The position numbers and the translations under genes were made by a program. Below, one piece after another: positions 560 through 58,641 of a stretch of 64,000 bases of DNA. This stretch comes from Bacteroides sp. (GTDB taxonomy: Bacteria; Bacteroidota; Bacteroidia; Bacteroidales; UBA7960). Below the pieces are notes generated by a model. It searched no databases. It saw nothing but the letters and a program-made list of their open reading frames with translations, and had not been told where the DNA came from. Position 1 is the first letter of the stretch. Each line of letters begins with the position of its first letter. Location of the stretch: contig JAZBOS010000109.1 in the NCBI GenBank assembly GCA_036351255.1, forward strand, positions 64,039-128,038. The letters are read 5' to 3'.

Positions 560-817
560 AATTTGGTGATTGACATGATTGGGTTAATTAAGAAAACAAA
601 TATATGAATTTAAAAATTATTCTTGCAAAAAAGAATGGCGAAAATTAAAAAAAACCCATTAACAAATGATTAGTTCCTGCCATAAAATATTTTTTGCCAG
701 GAATTAATTTCACTAAATTGGATTTGGAATATCGAACCTTTTGGTTATCAGGAAATTTGGAACCACTCCCGGCCGGGTTTCGACCCTTGGCAAGCATGTA
801 TCCGGATCAAAAATAAA

Positions 818-926
818 ACGTAGATAAAACGAATTTTAAACGTAGTTCAGACGTAGTTCAGACGTGCACACACGTCTGAACTACGTGTTAACTACGTGTT
901 AACTACGTGTTAACTACGTCTGAACT
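818..926. repeat. Repeat element A: inverted arrays of 11-bp units around a 16-bp-stem hairpin
   Basis: The left units begin with acg at 818, 829, 840, 851 and 862 (acgtagttcag twice). The segment 851-866 is the exact reverse complement of 871-886, with loop caca. The right units are ctgaactacgt at 876, gttaactacgt three times at 887, 898 and 909, and ctgaact at 920. Confidence 0.85.
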
Positions 927-1080
927 CTGATTCTGACAAGTCCCTTCAGTGGTTTTGAATCTCCTCTTTTTCTTTCTTTTTTCAGTTGAAAAGGTAAGGG
1001 AATGCCATAGCCTCCTTGCTGGCCTTGGCAATAGGAAAGAAGATGCCGGGTATTTTTTTAAAGGAGGGCTTTCGGGTAAT

Positions 1081-21629: not shown

Positions 21630-21682
21630 GTTTATACGGTTTAAACCGTATAAACTCCGTTTTAACTCCGTATTAACCATGA
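21630..21682. repeat. Repeat element B: 26-bp perfect palindrome plus 11-bp tandem units
   Basis: gtttatacggttt|aaaccgtataaac occupies 21630-21655, followed by ataaactccgt / tttaactccgt / attaaccatga in 11-bp register. It matches element C at 39 of 41 positions across cggtttaaaccg..attaac. Confidence 0.8.
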
Positions 21683-25465: not shown

Positions 25466-25661
25466 GGATTTTTACGGATTACGCTGATTAAAGTAAAGTG
25501 CCAAGGGCATGGGGCATGGAGCAAAGGGCACCGAGTAAAAGGCGTGGGGCATGGAGTCAAGGGCAAGGGGTAGAGGATATGGTGGATGGTGGCGTACAAT
25601 CAACCTTGAATCTTGAACTTTAAACTTTGAACCTTGAACCCCTAACTCCAAACGTCCTACC
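25466..25661. repeat. Array of 28 in-phase degenerate heptanucleotides filling the dinB-dnaE2 spacer
   Basis: The plus strand reads ..ccaaggg catgggg catggag caaaggg caccgag taaaagg cgtgggg catggag tcaaggg caagggg tagagga tatggtg gatggtg gcgtaca atcaacc ttgaatc ttgaact ttaaact ttgaacc ttgaacc cctaact ccaaacg tcctacc. No indel breaks the phase. Confidence 0.9.
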
Positions 25662-37384: not shown

Positions 37385-38062
37385 ATGCGGATTGATATCC
37401 TGACCATTTTCCCCGAGATGTTTACGGGCCCCTTTTCCCACTCCATCATCAAAAGGGCGCTTGAGAAGGGCCTGGCCGAGATTCATTTGCACAACCTCCG
37501 CGATTATTCCACTTCCAAACATCGTAACGTGGATGATTACCCCTTTGGGGGCGGGGCGGGCATGGTGATGATGGTGGAGCCCATCGACCGCTGCATCAGC
37601 AAGTTGAAAGCGGAACGGGACTATGAAGAGGTGATCTATCTGAGCCCCGACGGGGAATTGCTGACCCAGCCTGTGGCCAATCGCTTGTCGACAATGGGTA
37701 ACCTGATCCTGCTGTGCGGGCATTATAAAGGAGTTGACGAACGGGTGCGCGAGCATTTCATTACGCGCGAGATTTCGGTAGGCGACTATGTGCTTTCGGG
37801 GGGTGAGCTGGCTGCTGCCATGCTAACCGATGCGGTAGTAAGGCTGATCCCGGGGGTGCTGGGCGATGAGACTTCGGCCTTGTCCGACAGTTTTCAGGAT
37901 GGCTTGCTTTCGCCGCCCGTATATACCCGTCCGGCCGATTACAAGGGCTGGAAAGTGCCCAATGTGTTGCTTTCAGGCCACGACCGGAAGATCCACGAGT
38001 GGCGCCACGAACAGGCGCTTCATAGAACCAGGGACAGGCGGCCTGACTTACTGGGAGAGTAA
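37385..38062 (+). CDS. trmD: tRNA (guanine37-N1)-methyltransferase
   Basis: [43 protein letters not shown] is canonical TrmD. Confidence 0.95.
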
Positions 38063-38391
38063 GGCTGGGTAATTGGGATTTTTGGTTCAAGCTTAGGAGA
38101 AATTCTTAAATCATTATTTGGTAATCCTTGTTCATGATTCAAAAAAACAAAGCCTGAGGACTCCTGATCTCAGAATAAGGAACAAGCCCGCCTGCCTTTG
38201 CGGGCAGGAAATGAAAATTTCAGAAGTACCTGATCCTTGAAATTTGAACATTGAACCAAAAACCCTGAACTTTCTGATCTCAGATCAATGATTAGCGATT
38301 TATGGTTTATGATTTTTGTTAGGAGGGAGGATTTGGATGGATTTTCATAATTAATGAATGGATTTTAAAATATTTGGAGAAAGGGTTTTTT
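38063..38391 (+). repeat. Approximately 45 consecutive degenerate heptanucleotides filling the trmD-rplS spacer
   Basis: Starting at the nucleotide after the trmD stop, it reads ggctggg taattgg gattttt ggttcaa gcttagg .. cattatt tggtaat ccttgtt catgatt .. tgaaatt tgaacat tgaacca aaaaccc tgaactt tctgatc tcagatc aatgatt agcgatt tatggtt tatgatt tttgtta ggaggga ggatttg gatggat. All units are in a single phase. Confidence 0.75.
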
Positions 38392-38409
38392 TAAATGAAA
38401 ATATTTCTC

Positions 38410-38417
38410 TAAATTTG
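38410..38417 (+). promoter_or_regulatory. Candidate -7 promoter box TAAATTTG for rplS
   Basis: It matches TAnnTTTG, lies 47 nt upstream of the ATG at 38464, and is followed by GCACTCCTTTT as at rpsU. Confidence 0.5.
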
Positions 38418-38463
38418 CACTCCTTTTCAGAATACAAGAGAAATTATAAAATATACCGTACCG

Positions 38464-57970: not shown

Positions 57971-58156
57971 ATATTTCGTTGTGCATCCAGTTAAAATCTT
58001 AAGTAGCTGTCTCAAAAGCAGGAGGCAGCCGCTTTTTTTTGCCTGAGCCGCACTGTCCCCGAACCTCAATCCACCTCTATTTTCAGAGCAATGACCCCGG
58101 GTATGAGCCATCATGCTAAACACGACAGATCCATGCCAGGGACATACCTGGCTCAT

Positions 58157-58221
58157 AGTTAATACGGAGTTTATTCGGTTTAAACCGAATAAACTCCGTA
58201 TTAACTCCGTATTAACTCCGA
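58157..58221. repeat. Repeat element C: 50-bp perfect palindrome plus 11-bp tandem units
   Basis: The segment 58157-58206, agttaatacggagtttattcggttt|aaaccgaataaactccgtattaact, pairs perfectly, which I checked base by base. The 11-bp units ataaactccgt / attaactccgt / attaactccga lie at 58189, 58200 and 58211. Confidence 0.9.
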
Positions 58222-58641
58222 ACATGGTCCGACCCGGTAAGGAGCGTGTCATGATAATATTTTTCCTGTTCTTATTGGCTCAATGGTGGTAAATAAAAGA
58301 TAATGAGTCATTTGCGAGTATGTCTCAGGTTGCTGGGTTTGTGAATAGGAGAGGTTCAACAAAAGTGGGCAATGTCGCTGATCAGGGGGGAGCCCGGGGA
58401 AAAAAGCAGTTTCCAAATTTTGTCGAAGTGGCATGAGAATAAAAAAGGCATAGTATGGAAATTATCAGTAAGGTTGACCTGCGATGGATCCTTGGTTCAT
58501 CTTATTGATTTTGGAAAAATCTGCTGAAAATCTATTCTGTTTTGTTTCCGAAGGGCGATTCTTTTTGACTATATTTATATTTTTGTATCTAAGCATGGAT
58601 AGAAGGGACTAAAATTATTCTCTAATTAAGCCAGGGTTCTG

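What the first reader, a model, noticed from the sequence alone, without database searches (positions are those of the whole stretch)
38063..38391. The trmD-rplS spacer (about 330 nt) is a single-phase array of roughly 45 degenerate heptads
A 7-nt register starts at the first base after the trmD stop and holds through successive sub-blocks.
- ggctggg taattgg gattttt ggttcaa gcttagg
- cttaaat cattatt tggtaat ccttgtt catgatt
- tgaaatt tgaacat tgaacca aaaaccc tgaactt
- aatgatt agcgatt tatggtt tatgatt tttgtta
- ggaggga ggatttg gatggat
The unit GGTTCAA is shared with the sense strand of the dinB-dnaE2 array. In most bacteria trmD and rplS are tightly linked, so a 400-nt spacer made of short-period repeats is unusual. 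Two things are embedded in it: a GC hairpin (cctgcc tttgcg ggcagg, about 38190-38207) and two copies of ctgatctcaga (38164-38174 and 38274-38284). The candidate rplS promoter box (38410-38417) lies just beyond the array.
Basis: seen in the sequence. Interest (0 to 1): 0.65.

Follow-up and report, generated by a model that had tools for sequence, protein, structure and literature searches.

The report
Decayed heptad repeats between trmD and rplS
The long gap between the trmD and rplS genes of this uncultured Bacteroidales bacterium is padded with worn-down 7-base tandem repeats from a repeat family scattered through its genome; these are a known, fast-evolving kind of bacterial repeat with no shown function, and only the rplS promoter next to them is conserved.

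Summary
The period-7 signal is real and specific. Lag-7 identity in 38063-38391 is 0.40 (z=5.2 against dinucleotide shuffles), while lags 6 and 8 give z=1.0 and 1.7. The local spectrum at period 7 gives z=8.1. This is the strongest lag-7 stretch in the 64 kb window.

It is not one single-phase array of about 45 units. The signal sits in two patches, 38063-38153 and 38210-38342. Coherence is lost beyond about 5 units, and no consensus unit or register is shared between the patches.

The unit family GGTTCAA/TTGAACC also forms arrays at 25602-25650 and 40741-40775, and in related metagenomic genomes.

In the closest relative (TrmD 92% identical), the flanks and the promoter block 38338-38463 are 94-95% identical. 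The heptad core 38092-38334 cannot be aligned, although a fresher GGTTCAA array starts at the same place.

Related Bacteroidota have a median spacer of about 100 nt. Of 59 spacers, 55 carry a TAnnTTTG promoter box for rplS; here it is at 38410-38417.

Best reading: a decayed, slippage-generated intergenic heptamer repeat tract. It resembles cyanobacterial STRRs, Xanthomonas GGGAATC repeats and Beggiatoaceae/Bacteroidetes TAACTGA repeats. It is a new member of a known kind, of modest interest.

The parts
37385..38062 (+). trmD coding sequence (stop TAA 38060-38062)
   Evidence: ORF; Pfam tRNA_m1G_MT 4.4e-59; 100% identical protein P0001 named TrmD
38063..38153 (+). Heptad patch A: weak G/T-rich heptads. 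The first four units after the stop codon (GGCTGGG TAATTGG GATTTTT GGTTCAA) are orthologous to the start of the array in relative L162.
   Evidence: Lag-7 identity 0.417 (z=3.0) and Welch period 7 z=4.1; alignment to L162
38076..38090 (+). Left arm of a 15-nt inverted repeat (GGATTTTTGGTTCAA), which is two heptads
   Evidence: I1; outer stem of the fold of 38070-38272, z=-2.96,
38154..38209 (+). Non-periodic GC-rich core (57% GC) holding the hairpin GCCCGC/GCGGGC or CCTGCC/GGCAGG at 38186-38208. No U-tract follows on the + strand.
   Evidence: Lag-7 z=1.3; hairpin -12.9 kcal/mol with z=-1.2; not called as a + strand terminator; only copy of CCCGC-N-GCGGG in the window
38149..38174 (+). First copy of a roughly 26-nt direct repeat that contains CTGATCTCAGA (38164-38174)
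   Evidence: Local alignment to 38260-38284 scores 24, p=0.012 against shuffles; D1
38210..38342 (+). Heptad patch B, the strongest period-7 stretch. It holds TTGAAAT TTGAACA TTGAACC (38237-38257), GATTTAT-type units (38297-38315) and GGAGGGA GGATTTG GATGGAT.
   Evidence: Lag-7 identity 0.50 (z=5.2), lag 14 z=4.3 and Welch z=8.6; TRF
38251..38265 (+). Right arm of the inverted repeat (TTGAACCAAAAACCC)
   Evidence: I1
38260..38284 (+). Second copy of the roughly 26-nt direct repeat (CTGATCTCAGA at 38274-38284)
38338..38463 (+). Conserved promoter-proximal block and rplS 5' leader. It has no period-7 signal.
   Evidence: 95.2% identical to L162 over 126 nt without gaps; the 20-nt core 38408-427 is identical in L081 and near-identical in other relatives; no periodicity
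38388..38391 (+). Position equivalent to the Bacteroidota -33 element (TTTT here; consensus TTTG), 18 nt upstream of the -7 box
   Evidence: Alignment anchored on the -7 box; inference from the published Bacteroidetes promoter consensus (own knowledge)
38410..38417 (+). rplS promoter -7 box TAAATTTG, followed by the conserved leader GCACTCCTTTT
   Evidence: TAnnTTTG followed by GCAc(t/c)c..TTTT in 55 of 59 trmD-rplS spacers, 17-66 nt before the ATG in most,
38464..38820 (+). rplS coding sequence
38850..38876 (+). Canonical intrinsic terminator after rplS (7-bp stem plus T9)
25481..25661 (-). Sister heptad tract in the dinB-dnaE2 spacer. On the sense (-) strand, GGTTCAA-type units begin about 20 nt after the dinB stop and are followed by GCCCCAT/GCCCTTG units.
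   Evidence: gene identities
40741..40775 (+). Sister heptad array GGTCTCA GGTTTCA GGTTTTCA GGTTTCA GGTTCAT, starting at the first base after the stop codon of the formiminotransferase-cyclodeaminase gene
   Evidence: gene identity

Best explanation
The trmD-rplS spacer has two parts with different histories.

Part 1, about 38063-38337, is a decayed tract of heptanucleotide tandem repeats. It belongs to a clade-specific dispersed family with unit GGTTCAA and its complement TTGAACC, plus a few other units. The tract was built by repeated local duplication: 7-nt slippage, plus at least one 26-nt direct duplication and one 15-nt inverted duplication. Point mutation then eroded it. It turns over much faster than the surrounding non-coding DNA and has inflated a spacer that is normally about 100 nt to 401 nt. 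It most likely has no sequence-specific function. It is probably transcribed as the trmD 3' untranslated region or as read-through RNA, because no canonical terminator lies in it.

Part 2, 38338-38463, is the conserved functional part. It holds a Bacteroidota-type rplS promoter (-7 box TAAATTTG at 38410-38417) and a 46-nt leader.

Shown: the periodicity, its patchiness, the sharing of the unit family between sites, the lack of conservation of the core, and the conservation of the promoter. Inferred: slippage as the generating process, neutrality, and read-through transcription.
For: - Specific period-7 signal with only short coherence.
- Several unrelated units within one tract, with no shared register.
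- Internal direct and inverted duplications.
- The same unit family occurs at three sites in the window. TTGAAC has 6 of its 34 copies in 1% of the window. The family also occurs in L162, L163 and L086, with 12-14-nt exact matches.
- Comparison of the window with L162 (TrmD 92% amino-acid identity): trmD CDS 87.8% and rplS CDS 93% nucleotide identity; 200 nt upstream of trmD 94%; promoter block 95.2%. The segment 38092-38334 is unalignable and differs in length, 243 nt against 175 nt.
- In both genomes GGTTCAA is the 4th heptad after the stop codon. L162 then has about 6 clean units (GGTTCAA GGTTCAA GGTTCCA GGTTAAA GGTTCCA GGTTTTG) where the window has one. L163 has GGTTTGA GGTTCAA TGTTTAA. 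This is copy-number and sequence turnover at a fixed site.
- Relatives have short spacers, median 100 nt. Other lineages carry unrelated heptads after trmD: L026, L075, L066, L049 and L136.
- Across 1.02 Mb of Bacteroidota loci, lag 7 gives 60 segments. Lags 5, 8, 10, 11 and 13 give 20, 39, 17, 8 and 9. Fifty of 65 lag-7 segments lie in the 13.5% of sequence that is non-coding.
- Published parallels: heptamers are the most abundant long simple sequence repeats in many bacteria, with polymerase slippage proposed as the cause (Mrazek 2007, as summarised in PMC4679880 and PMC4692102). Xanthomonas and Nostoc heptamer repeats are 89-93% intergenic, lie close to the upstream ORF, and are kept at the same sites between relatives with extensive length and sequence variation (PMC4692102).
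- Promoter.
- No + strand terminator in the spacer, but a canonical one after rplS.
Against: - Slippage was not observed directly. No population or strain-level copy-number data were available.
- The same few unit families recur at unlinked sites and in genomes as distant as 74% TrmD identity (L086). Pure local slippage does not explain this. It needs either dispersal or gene conversion, or selection for those sequences.
- At all four independent sites seen in this clade, the G/T-rich orientation (GGTTNNA) is on the sense strand at or within about 20 nt of the upstream stop codon: window 25661 (- strand), 38063 and 40741, and L086 2406. This could hint at an RNA-level role, although 4 of 4 is not significant.
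- A GGTTCAA array has persisted at the trmD 3' end in three genomes.
- The 190-nt domain closed by the inverted repeat folds better than shuffles (z=-2.96).
Confidence: 0.7

Rival explanations
1. The GGUUCAA-type repeats are functional cis-elements in RNA. They would form a G/U-rich platform placed right after stop codons that binds a single-strand RNA-binding protein (for example a cold-shock, S1-like or RRM protein, roughly one protein per 6-7 nt), or that shapes 3'-end stability or processing of the upstream message.
For: - Sense-strand G/T-rich orientation abutting the upstream stop codon at window 40741, 38063 and 25661 (- strand), and at L086 2406.
- Persistence of an array at the trmD 3' end in the window, L162 and L163.
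- The same units are reused at unlinked loci.
- No canonical terminator after trmD.
- CspB binding to heptamer repeats and a post-transcriptional role were proposed for TAACTGA repeats (PMC4679880).
Against: - The first 29 nt after the stop are only about 66% identical between the window and L162, while neighbouring non-coding DNA is 94-95% identical.
- Unit number ranges from about 1 to 6 at the same site.
- The complementary orientation (TTGAACC) occurs in the same spacer (38237-38257).
- Across 36 heptad tracts between co-directional genes in Bacteroidota there is no bias. GC skew is positive in 19 and negative in 15. Seventeen are closer to the stop and 18 closer to the start.
- The dinB-dnaE2 tract does not fold better than shuffles (z=-0.26).
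Confidence: 0.15
2. The 190-nt segment 38076-38265 is a miniature inverted-repeat element or REP/BIME-like mosaic element that inserted into the spacer. The heptads would be part of its terminal repeats.
For: - A 15-nt inverted repeat with one mismatch closes the segment. The fold gives z=-2.96.
- There is an internal GC hairpin.
- L086 has a composite intergenic region with repeated [TTGAAC heptads + CCCGC-N3-GCGGG hairpin] modules.
- Unit families are dispersed between loci.
Against: - No second copy of the segment, or of any part longer than 13 nt, exists in the 64 kb window or in the first 160 related loci searched.
- No target-site duplication flanks the arms.
- The arms are simply two heptad units each.
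- L162 keeps the left arm but has no right arm or hairpin.
- Only one CCCGC-N-GCGGG hairpin exists in the window.
Confidence: 0.08
3. The heptad tract is an upstream regulatory region of the rplS promoter, for example phased protein-binding sites or a curvature or UP-like element.
For: - It lies 70-350 nt upstream of the -7 box.
- A 12-nt direct repeat (TGGATGGATTTT and TGAATGGATTTT), 21 nt apart, sits at 38334-38366. Its second copy and the 3' end of the first lie in the block that aligns with L162.
- Heptad repeats regulate the ctx promoter in Vibrio cholerae (title and abstract of bioRxiv 10.1101/2021.05.14.444153, listed).
Against: - The periodic part (to 38342) is exactly the part that is not conserved. 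The conserved block 38338-38463 has no period-7 signal.
- Relatives run the same promoter with spacers of 50-100 nt in total.
- There is no power at 10-11 nt.
Confidence: 0.05
4. The apparent register is a chance product of AT-rich low-complexity sequence.
For: - The region is 36% GC.
- TRF finds only one short array.
- Global Fourier power at 1/7 is flat.
Against: - Zero of 1000 dinucleotide shuffles reach the lag-7 identity.
- The local spectrum gives z=8.1 at period 7 only.
- It has the highest lag-7 score in 64 kb.
- The most AT-rich neighbouring stretch has no signal.
Confidence: 0.02

Closest known systems
Heptameric intergenic simple sequence repeats of Xanthomonas (GGGAATC) and Nostoc (GGGGAYT), Rehm et al. 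2015, PMC4692102
   Same: - 7-nt unit and a lineage-specific unit sequence dispersed over many loci.
- About 90% intergenic, mostly between co-directional genes and close to the upstream ORF's end.
- Retained at the same sites in related genomes, but with extensive length and sequence variation.
- Function unknown; slippage proposed as the origin.
   Different: - The unit here is GGTTCAA/GGTTTCA. It is not a G-tract unit, so it has no quadruplex potential. Only the companion GGGGCAT-type units at 25500-25590 have G-runs.
- The tract examined is far more degenerate, with no perfect two-unit repeat.
- The host is an uncultured Bacteroidales lineage.
- Only 3 sites could be seen in 64 kb, so genome-wide abundance is not established.
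TAACTGA heptamer direct repeats of marine Beggiatoaceae, Cyanobacteria and five Bacteroidetes (MacGregor 2015, PMC4679880)
   Same: - Intergenic heptamer direct repeats.
- They occur inside ribosomal-protein gene clusters.
[quoted passage not shown]
   Different: - No TAACTGA tandem is present anywhere in the window.
- In the Beggiatoaceae genome described there, the TAACTGA sets sit within a few nt upstream of start codons. Here the tract abuts the upstream stop codon and lies upstream of the rplS promoter.
Cyanobacterial STRR (short tandemly repeated repetitive) heptanucleotide sequences
   Same: A few specific heptamers, tandemly repeated and dispersed in non-coding DNA of a lineage (own knowledge, and as cited in PMC4692102).
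   Different: - The unit sequences differ. STRR1-3 are essentially absent as tandems in the window: at most one 2-mismatch, probably chance, match each for STRR1 and STRR2, and none for STRR3.
- STRR arrays are usually much cleaner.
Long simple sequence repeats (LSSR) of Mrazek, Guo and Shah 2007
   Same: A unit length of 7 is the most abundant class in the 5-11 nt group, and the repeats are non-coding (as summarised in PMC4679880).
   Different: LSSRs are defined on near-perfect repeats longer than chance expectation. This spacer would not be called by such a criterion. Only its sister arrays (40741-40775, 25602-25640) and the L162 ortholog would.
Bacteroidota housekeeping promoter (-33 TTTG / -7 TAnnTTTG)
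   Same: The -7 box TAAATTTG lies 46 nt before the rplS ATG and is conserved in position and sequence across 55 of 59 relatives.
   Different: The -33 position reads TTTT rather than TTTG. The transcription start site is not mapped.

Membership tests
Intergenic heptameric SSR / STRR-like repeat family | Head-to-tail repetition with a 7-nt unit | tested here: met
   The lag-7 signal is specific (z=5.2; Welch z=8.1). It is degenerate: the longest run of lag-7 matches is 6 nt, and TRF finds only 2.7 copies.
Intergenic heptameric SSR / STRR-like repeat family | The same unit sequence recurs as arrays at several unlinked intergenic loci of the genome | tested here: met
   GGTTCAA/TTGAACC/GGTTTCA arrays at 25602-25650, 38084 with 38237-38257, and 40741-40775. 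Only 64 kb of the genome could be examined.
Intergenic heptameric SSR / STRR-like repeat family | Non-coding location | tested here: met
   All three sites lie between confirmed genes. Fifty of 65 lag-7 tracts in Bacteroidota loci are non-coding.
Intergenic heptameric SSR / STRR-like repeat family | [quoted passage not shown] | tested here: met
   The window, L162 and L163 all start with GGTTCAA-type units after the trmD stop but differ in unit number and in everything downstream, while the flanks are 94-95% identical.
Intergenic heptameric SSR / STRR-like repeat family | Copy-number polymorphism within a population (slipped-strand mispairing) | not testable with these tools
   No reads or strain-level assemblies were available. 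The nearest relative has 92% TrmD identity.
Long simple sequence repeat (LSSR) in the sense of Mrazek 2007 | Near-perfect tandem repeat longer than expected by chance | tested here: not met
   No perfect two-unit repeat exists in 38063-38463. It is met only by the sister arrays and by the L162 ortholog.
TAACTGA repeat system (MacGregor 2015) | Direct repeats of the unit TAACTGA | tested here: not met
   No two tandem units with 2 mismatches or fewer in the window.
   Fourier power at 1/7 z=-0.6; chi-square p=0.10 and no shift-0 correlation between patches; no excess identity at multiples of 7 beyond lag 35.
Bacteroidota sigma-A promoter | -7 element TAnnTTTG at a suitable distance from the gene, conserved in orthologous spacers | tested here: met
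   TAAATTTG at 38410-38417; present in 55 of 59 spacers; the 20-nt core is identical in L081.
Bacteroidota sigma-A promoter | -33 element TTTG about 18-20 nt upstream | tested here: inconclusive
   TTTT at 38388-38391, 18 nt upstream, where relatives such as L028 and L081 have TTTG.
Bacteroidota sigma-A promoter | Mapped transcription start | not testable with these tools
   No transcript data.
Intrinsic terminator for trmD | GC-rich hairpin followed by a U-tract on the sense strand | tested here: not met
   The hairpin at 38186-38208 is followed by AAATGAAAATTT. The scan reports it only on the - strand. The hairpin is not conserved in L162 or L163.
MITE | Terminal inverted repeats | tested here: met
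   Arms at 38076-38090 and 38251-38265: 15 nt, 93% complementary.
MITE | Multiple copies and target-site duplication | tested here: not met
   No other copy in the window or the first 160 related loci searched. The flanks TAATTG and TGAACT are not duplicated.
Known structured RNA (Rfam 15, including the L19 leader) | Covariance-model match | tested here: not met
   No credible match in 37900-38600: all seven matches listed at E up to 10 (best E 0.2) score 12.5-19 bits, far below their gathering thresholds of 35-97 bits.

The most novel reading that the evidence does not exclude
GGTTCAA-family heptad arrays are a functional, clade-wide cis-element of an uncultured Bacteroidales lineage. Placed on the sense strand directly after stop codons, they would act at the RNA level, as a multi-site platform for a single-strand RNA-binding protein or as a determinant of 3'-end formation or stability in genes that lack a hairpin terminator. 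Their rapid turnover would then reflect selection on array presence rather than on exact sequence. More broadly, period-7 tracts would be a selected feature of Bacteroidota intergenic DNA and not slippage debris.
Probability: 0.12. Interest if true: 0.6.

Novelty: new member of a known kind. Interest (0 to 1): 0.3.

Why it matters
Intergenic heptamer repeats have been known since the cyanobacterial STRRs, and later in Xanthomonas, Nostoc, Beggiatoaceae and a few Bacteroidetes. Neither their origin (why 7 nt?) nor any function is settled.

This locus adds three things:
- A new unit family (GGTTCAA/GGTTTCA) in an uncultured Bacteroidales lineage.
- A clean natural comparison: conserved flanks around a core that has been completely remodelled between genomes with 92% TrmD identity.
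- Evidence from about 1 Mb of diverse Bacteroidota DNA that 7 is the dominant non-triplet short period in intergenic sequence.

For annotation, the practical lesson is that the long trmD-rplS gap is repeat padding plus an ordinary, conserved rplS promoter. It is not a novel RNA gene or regulatory array. If the sense-strand, stop-codon-adjacent placement held genome-wide, it would give a testable handle on the function of heptamer repeats.

Tried and rejected
- Rfam 15 at E up to 10 over 37900-38600: only sub-threshold noise, and no L19 leader.
- Global single-frequency Fourier test: flat at period 7. I rejected it as the sole test because units change along the tract. I replaced it with lag autocorrelation and a Welch-averaged local spectrum.
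- Terminator reading of the GC hairpin: no U-tract on the + strand, not better than shuffles, and not conserved.
- MITE or REP reading: no other copies, no target duplication, and only one such hairpin in the window.
- Structured-RNA reading: the whole spacer folds at z=-1.5. The 203-nt domain reaches z=-2.96 only through the outer inverted repeat, and its interior is not stable in the centroid. There are no alignable homologs for a covariation test. The dinB-dnaE2 tract gives z=-0.26.
- General strand or position rule for heptad tracts across Bacteroidota: none found.
- Enrichment of heptads specifically after trmD: about 7-8 of 60 tracts, roughly what is expected from the share of intergenic regions (reading).
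- Identity with known heptamer families (TAACTGA, STRR1-3, GGGAATC, GGGGATT): essentially absent as tandems, at most one 2-mismatch, probably chance, match each for three of them.
- Literature search for GGTTCAA or GGTTTCA tandems: nothing relevant.
- Attempts to extend the source contig by exact-protein look-up of RplS and two edge ORFs failed, because those products are not on record.
- The GTDB species set and the JGI metagenome scans gave no relative closer than 79-81% TrmD identity. Closer relatives came only from the protein-cluster search.
Full report
WHAT IS AT THE COORDINATES

- trmD is 37385-38062 and rplS is 38464-38820, both on the + strand. Pfam gives tRNA_m1G_MT 4e-59 and Ribosomal_L19 1.5e-45.
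- The spacer, 38063-38463, is 401 nt.
- rplS is followed by a canonical terminator at 38850-38867 plus T9. No + strand terminator is found in the spacer.
- The source is an uncultured Bacteroidales-type MAG. P0001 is 100% identical and is named 'Bacteroides sp.'.

IS THE PERIOD-7 SIGNAL REAL?

Yes.
The expected value from dinucleotide-preserving shuffles is 0.272 +/- 0.025 (z=5.2, matched by 0 of 1000 shuffles).
- Lag 6 gives z=1.0 and lag 8 gives z=1.7. The harmonics at lags 14 and 21 give z about 2.7.
- A Welch-type spectrum (42-nt windows, period 7 plus harmonics) gives z=8.1. Periods 5, 6, 8 and 9 are all below expectation.
- The 300-nt window 38068-38367 has the highest lag-7 identity in the entire 64 kb: 0.423 against a mean of 0.244, sd 0.030.
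The most AT-rich part of the spacer, 38343-38463 at 24% GC, shows no period-7 signal at all.

IS IT ONE SINGLE-PHASE ARRAY OF ABOUT 45 UNITS?

No.
- The plain Fourier power at 1/7 over the whole interval is flat (z=-0.6).
- The phase-by-base contingency test at period 7 gives p=0.10.
- Identity at multiples of 7 is raised only to lag 35 and is at background from lag 42 onward.
- Position profiles of the sub-blocks do not correlate at zero shift.
- The signal is confined to two patches. Patch A is 38063-38153 (z 3.0 and 4.1). Patch B is 38210-38342 (lag-7 identity 0.50; z 5.2 and 8.6).
- The patches are separated by a 56-nt, 57% GC core that holds the hairpin. They are followed by a non-periodic block.
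- No perfect two-unit repeat survives, and TRF sees only 2.7 copies at 38297-38315.
- The tract is a mosaic of short, eroded runs with different units.

Other duplications helped build the tract.
- A 15-nt inverted repeat, each arm exactly two heptads: 38076-38090 GGATTTTTGGTTCAA and 38251-38265 TTGAACCAAAAACCC.

THE TRACT BELONGS TO A DISPERSED UNIT FAMILY

- Two other intergenic sites in the window carry heptad arrays.
  - The dinB-dnaE2 spacer, 25481-25661, has AACCTTG x5.6 and GGGCATG-type units.
  - The first bases after the formiminotransferase-cyclodeaminase stop codon, 40741-40775, read GGTCTCA GGTTTCA GGTTTTCA GGTTTCA GGTTCAT.
- TTGAAC has 6 of its 34 copies in these three spacers, which make up 1% of the window.
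- GGTTCAA-type double units occur only there.

COMPARISON WITH RELATIVES

- Species-representative genomes and JGI metagenomes gave nothing closer than 79-81% TrmD identity.
- Among 58 loci with trmD directly upstream of rplS, the median spacer is 100 nt and the 10th-90th percentile range is 72-274 nt. Only three spacers are longer than 401 nt, all 861 nt or more. Many relatives do not have the genes adjacent. 'Tightly linked' is therefore not the norm in this phylum, but 401 nt is unusually long.
- The only part of the spacer with homologs is the promoter core 38408-38427.
- TAnnTTTG followed by GCAc(t/c)c..TTTT occurs in 55 of 59 spacers, usually 17-66 nt before the ATG. In the window the box is TAAATTTG at 38410-38417, 46 nt before the ATG. 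TTTT sits where relatives have the -33 TTTG.

The protein-cluster search found closer relatives.
- L162 (TrmD 92%) has a 331-nt spacer.
- Against L162 the nucleotide identities are: trmD CDS 87.8%; rplS CDS 93%; 200 nt upstream of trmD 94%; promoter block 38338-38463 95.2%.
- 38092-38334 cannot be aligned with the 175 nt that occupy the same place in L162.
- Both tracts nevertheless begin the same way, with GGTTCAA as the fourth heptad after the stop codon. L162 continues with a much cleaner array: GGTTCAA GGTTCAA GGTTCCA GGTTAAA GGTTCCA GGTTTTG.
- L163 (TrmD 89%) has GGTTTGA GGTTCAA TGTTTAA and then AAGCCCGCCTTCC, which matches the start of the window's hairpin region.
- L086 (TrmD 74%) carries the same families (GGTTAGA/GGTTGGA, then TTGAAC/TTTAAAC units and small GC hairpins) in a different spacer, upstream of trmD.
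- Exact 12-14-nt matches link the L162, L086 and window arrays.
- So an array at this site is ancestral to the clade. Its content turns over far faster than the adjacent non-coding DNA.

HOW GENERAL IS THIS?

- In 1.02 Mb of Bacteroidota loci, windows with high lag-k identity number 60 for lag 7. Lags 5, 8, 10, 11 and 13 give 20, 39, 17, 8 and 9. Lag 14, the harmonic, gives 51.
- Fifty of 65 lag-7 tracts lie in the 13.5% of sequence that is non-coding.
- Unit sequences differ between lineages, for example AATTCGT, AGTAAGN, CAGTCNN and AAAACTG.
- Other lineages have unrelated heptads right after trmD: L026, L075, L066, L049 and L136.
- Across 36 tracts between co-directional genes there is no strand or position rule.

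WHAT IS KNOWN

- Heptamers are the most abundant long simple sequence repeats in many bacterial genomes, and polymerase slippage has been proposed as the cause (Mrazek 2007, as summarised in PMC4679880 and PMC4692102).
- Xanthomonas GGGAATC and Nostoc GGGGAYT repeats are 89-93% intergenic and lie on average 28 nt from the upstream ORF, mostly between co-directional genes. They are kept at the same sites between related species 'with extensive length and sequence variation' (PMC4692102).
- MacGregor (PMC4679880) describes TAACTGA repeats in Beggiatoaceae, Cyanobacteria and five Bacteroidetes. [quoted passage not shown]
- The present locus behaves the same way with a different unit. TAACTGA, the STRR units and the Xanthomonas and Nostoc units are essentially absent as tandems in the window.
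- No paper mentions GGTTCAA or GGTTTCA tandems.

MOST LIKELY EXPLANATION (confidence about 0.7)

- The spacer is a decayed, slippage-generated heptamer repeat tract from a clade-specific family, joined to an ordinary conserved rplS promoter and leader.
- Shown: periodicity, patchiness, unit sharing, internal duplications, non-conservation of the core, and conservation of the promoter.
- Inferred: slippage as the mechanism, neutrality, and transcription of the tract as the trmD 3' UTR or as read-through RNA (there is no terminator).

RIVALS

- An RNA-level function for sense-strand G/U-rich arrays abutting stop codons (0.15). It is suggested by 4 of 4 clade sites and by persistence at the trmD 3' end. 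Against it are rapid sequence decay, variable copy number, the presence of the complementary orientation, and the absence of a phylum-wide bias.
- A MITE or REP-like element (0.08). It has inverted arms and a fold z of -2.96, but no other copies and no target duplication.
- An upstream regulatory region of rplS (0.05). The periodic part is exactly the non-conserved part.
- A chance low-complexity artefact (0.02). This is refuted.

VERDICT

- This is a new member of a known kind of repeat, of modest interest (0.3).
- The main residual question is whether the sense-strand, stop-adjacent placement of GGTTCAA arrays holds genome-wide.

Noticed in passing
window 813-930; 21636-21680; 58150-58222: A second dispersed repeat family with an 11-nt unit (AACTACGTGTT, AACTCCGTATT, CCGTATTAACT). 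The units are arranged as inverted arrays around a central palindrome, for example CGGTTTAAACCG at about 21637 and 58178. The 21636 and 58150 copies share TAAACTCCGT..TTAACTCCGTATTAAC. It looks like a REP-like palindromic element. It is unrelated to the heptads.
   Followed up: partly
window 25481-25600: The dinB-dnaE2 spacer has heptads with G-runs on the + strand (CAAGGGC ATGGGGC ... GTGGGGC ... AAGGGGT). They resemble the quadruplex-prone heptamer repeats described in Xanthomonas and Nostoc. CAAAGGGCAC is shared with the trmD-rplS spacer of relative L162. Quadruplex potential was not tested.
   Followed up: partly
window 40741-40775: A clean GGTTTCA array (4.7 copies, 89% matches) starts at the very first base after the stop codon of the formiminotransferase-cyclodeaminase gene and ends 28 nt before the next ATG.
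   Followed up: partly
window 38418-38428, and the rplS upstream regions of L003, L081, L075, L119 and others: Directly after the -7 box, the sequence GCACTCC(n)TTTT is conserved across most Bacteroidota rplS promoters. It may be a conserved initial transcribed sequence or L19 leader element. It has no Rfam match.
   Followed up: partly
window 38334-38366: A direct repeat, TGGATGGATTTT and TGAATGGATTTT, spaced 21 nt apart at the upstream edge of the conserved promoter-proximal block. The second copy and the 3' part of the first are kept in L162. It is a possible protein-binding pair upstream of the rplS promoter.
   Followed up: no
L086 2406-2719: A 314-nt spacer upstream of trmD in a relative with 74% TrmD identity. 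It is a composite of GGTTAGA/GGTTGGA heptads, TTGAAC/TTTAAAC heptads, two CCCGC-N3-GCGGG hairpins, and a repeated GCTTCGCTCAACTTTGAACTT module. The organisation is mosaic and BIME-like.
   Followed up: partly
L163 2438-2475: Three tandem 11-nt units (GGAGATGGTAG GGAGATGGTAC GGAGATGGTAA) upstream of trmD in the relative with 89% TrmD identity. They are absent from the corresponding region of the window.
   Followed up: no
window 38164-38290: Four GATC sites lie within 120 nt (38166, 38232, 38276, 38283). Three of them occur as CTGATC, and CTGATC is also about 2-3 times over-represented across the whole window: 45 and 34 copies on the two strands against 15 expected per strand.
   Followed up: no
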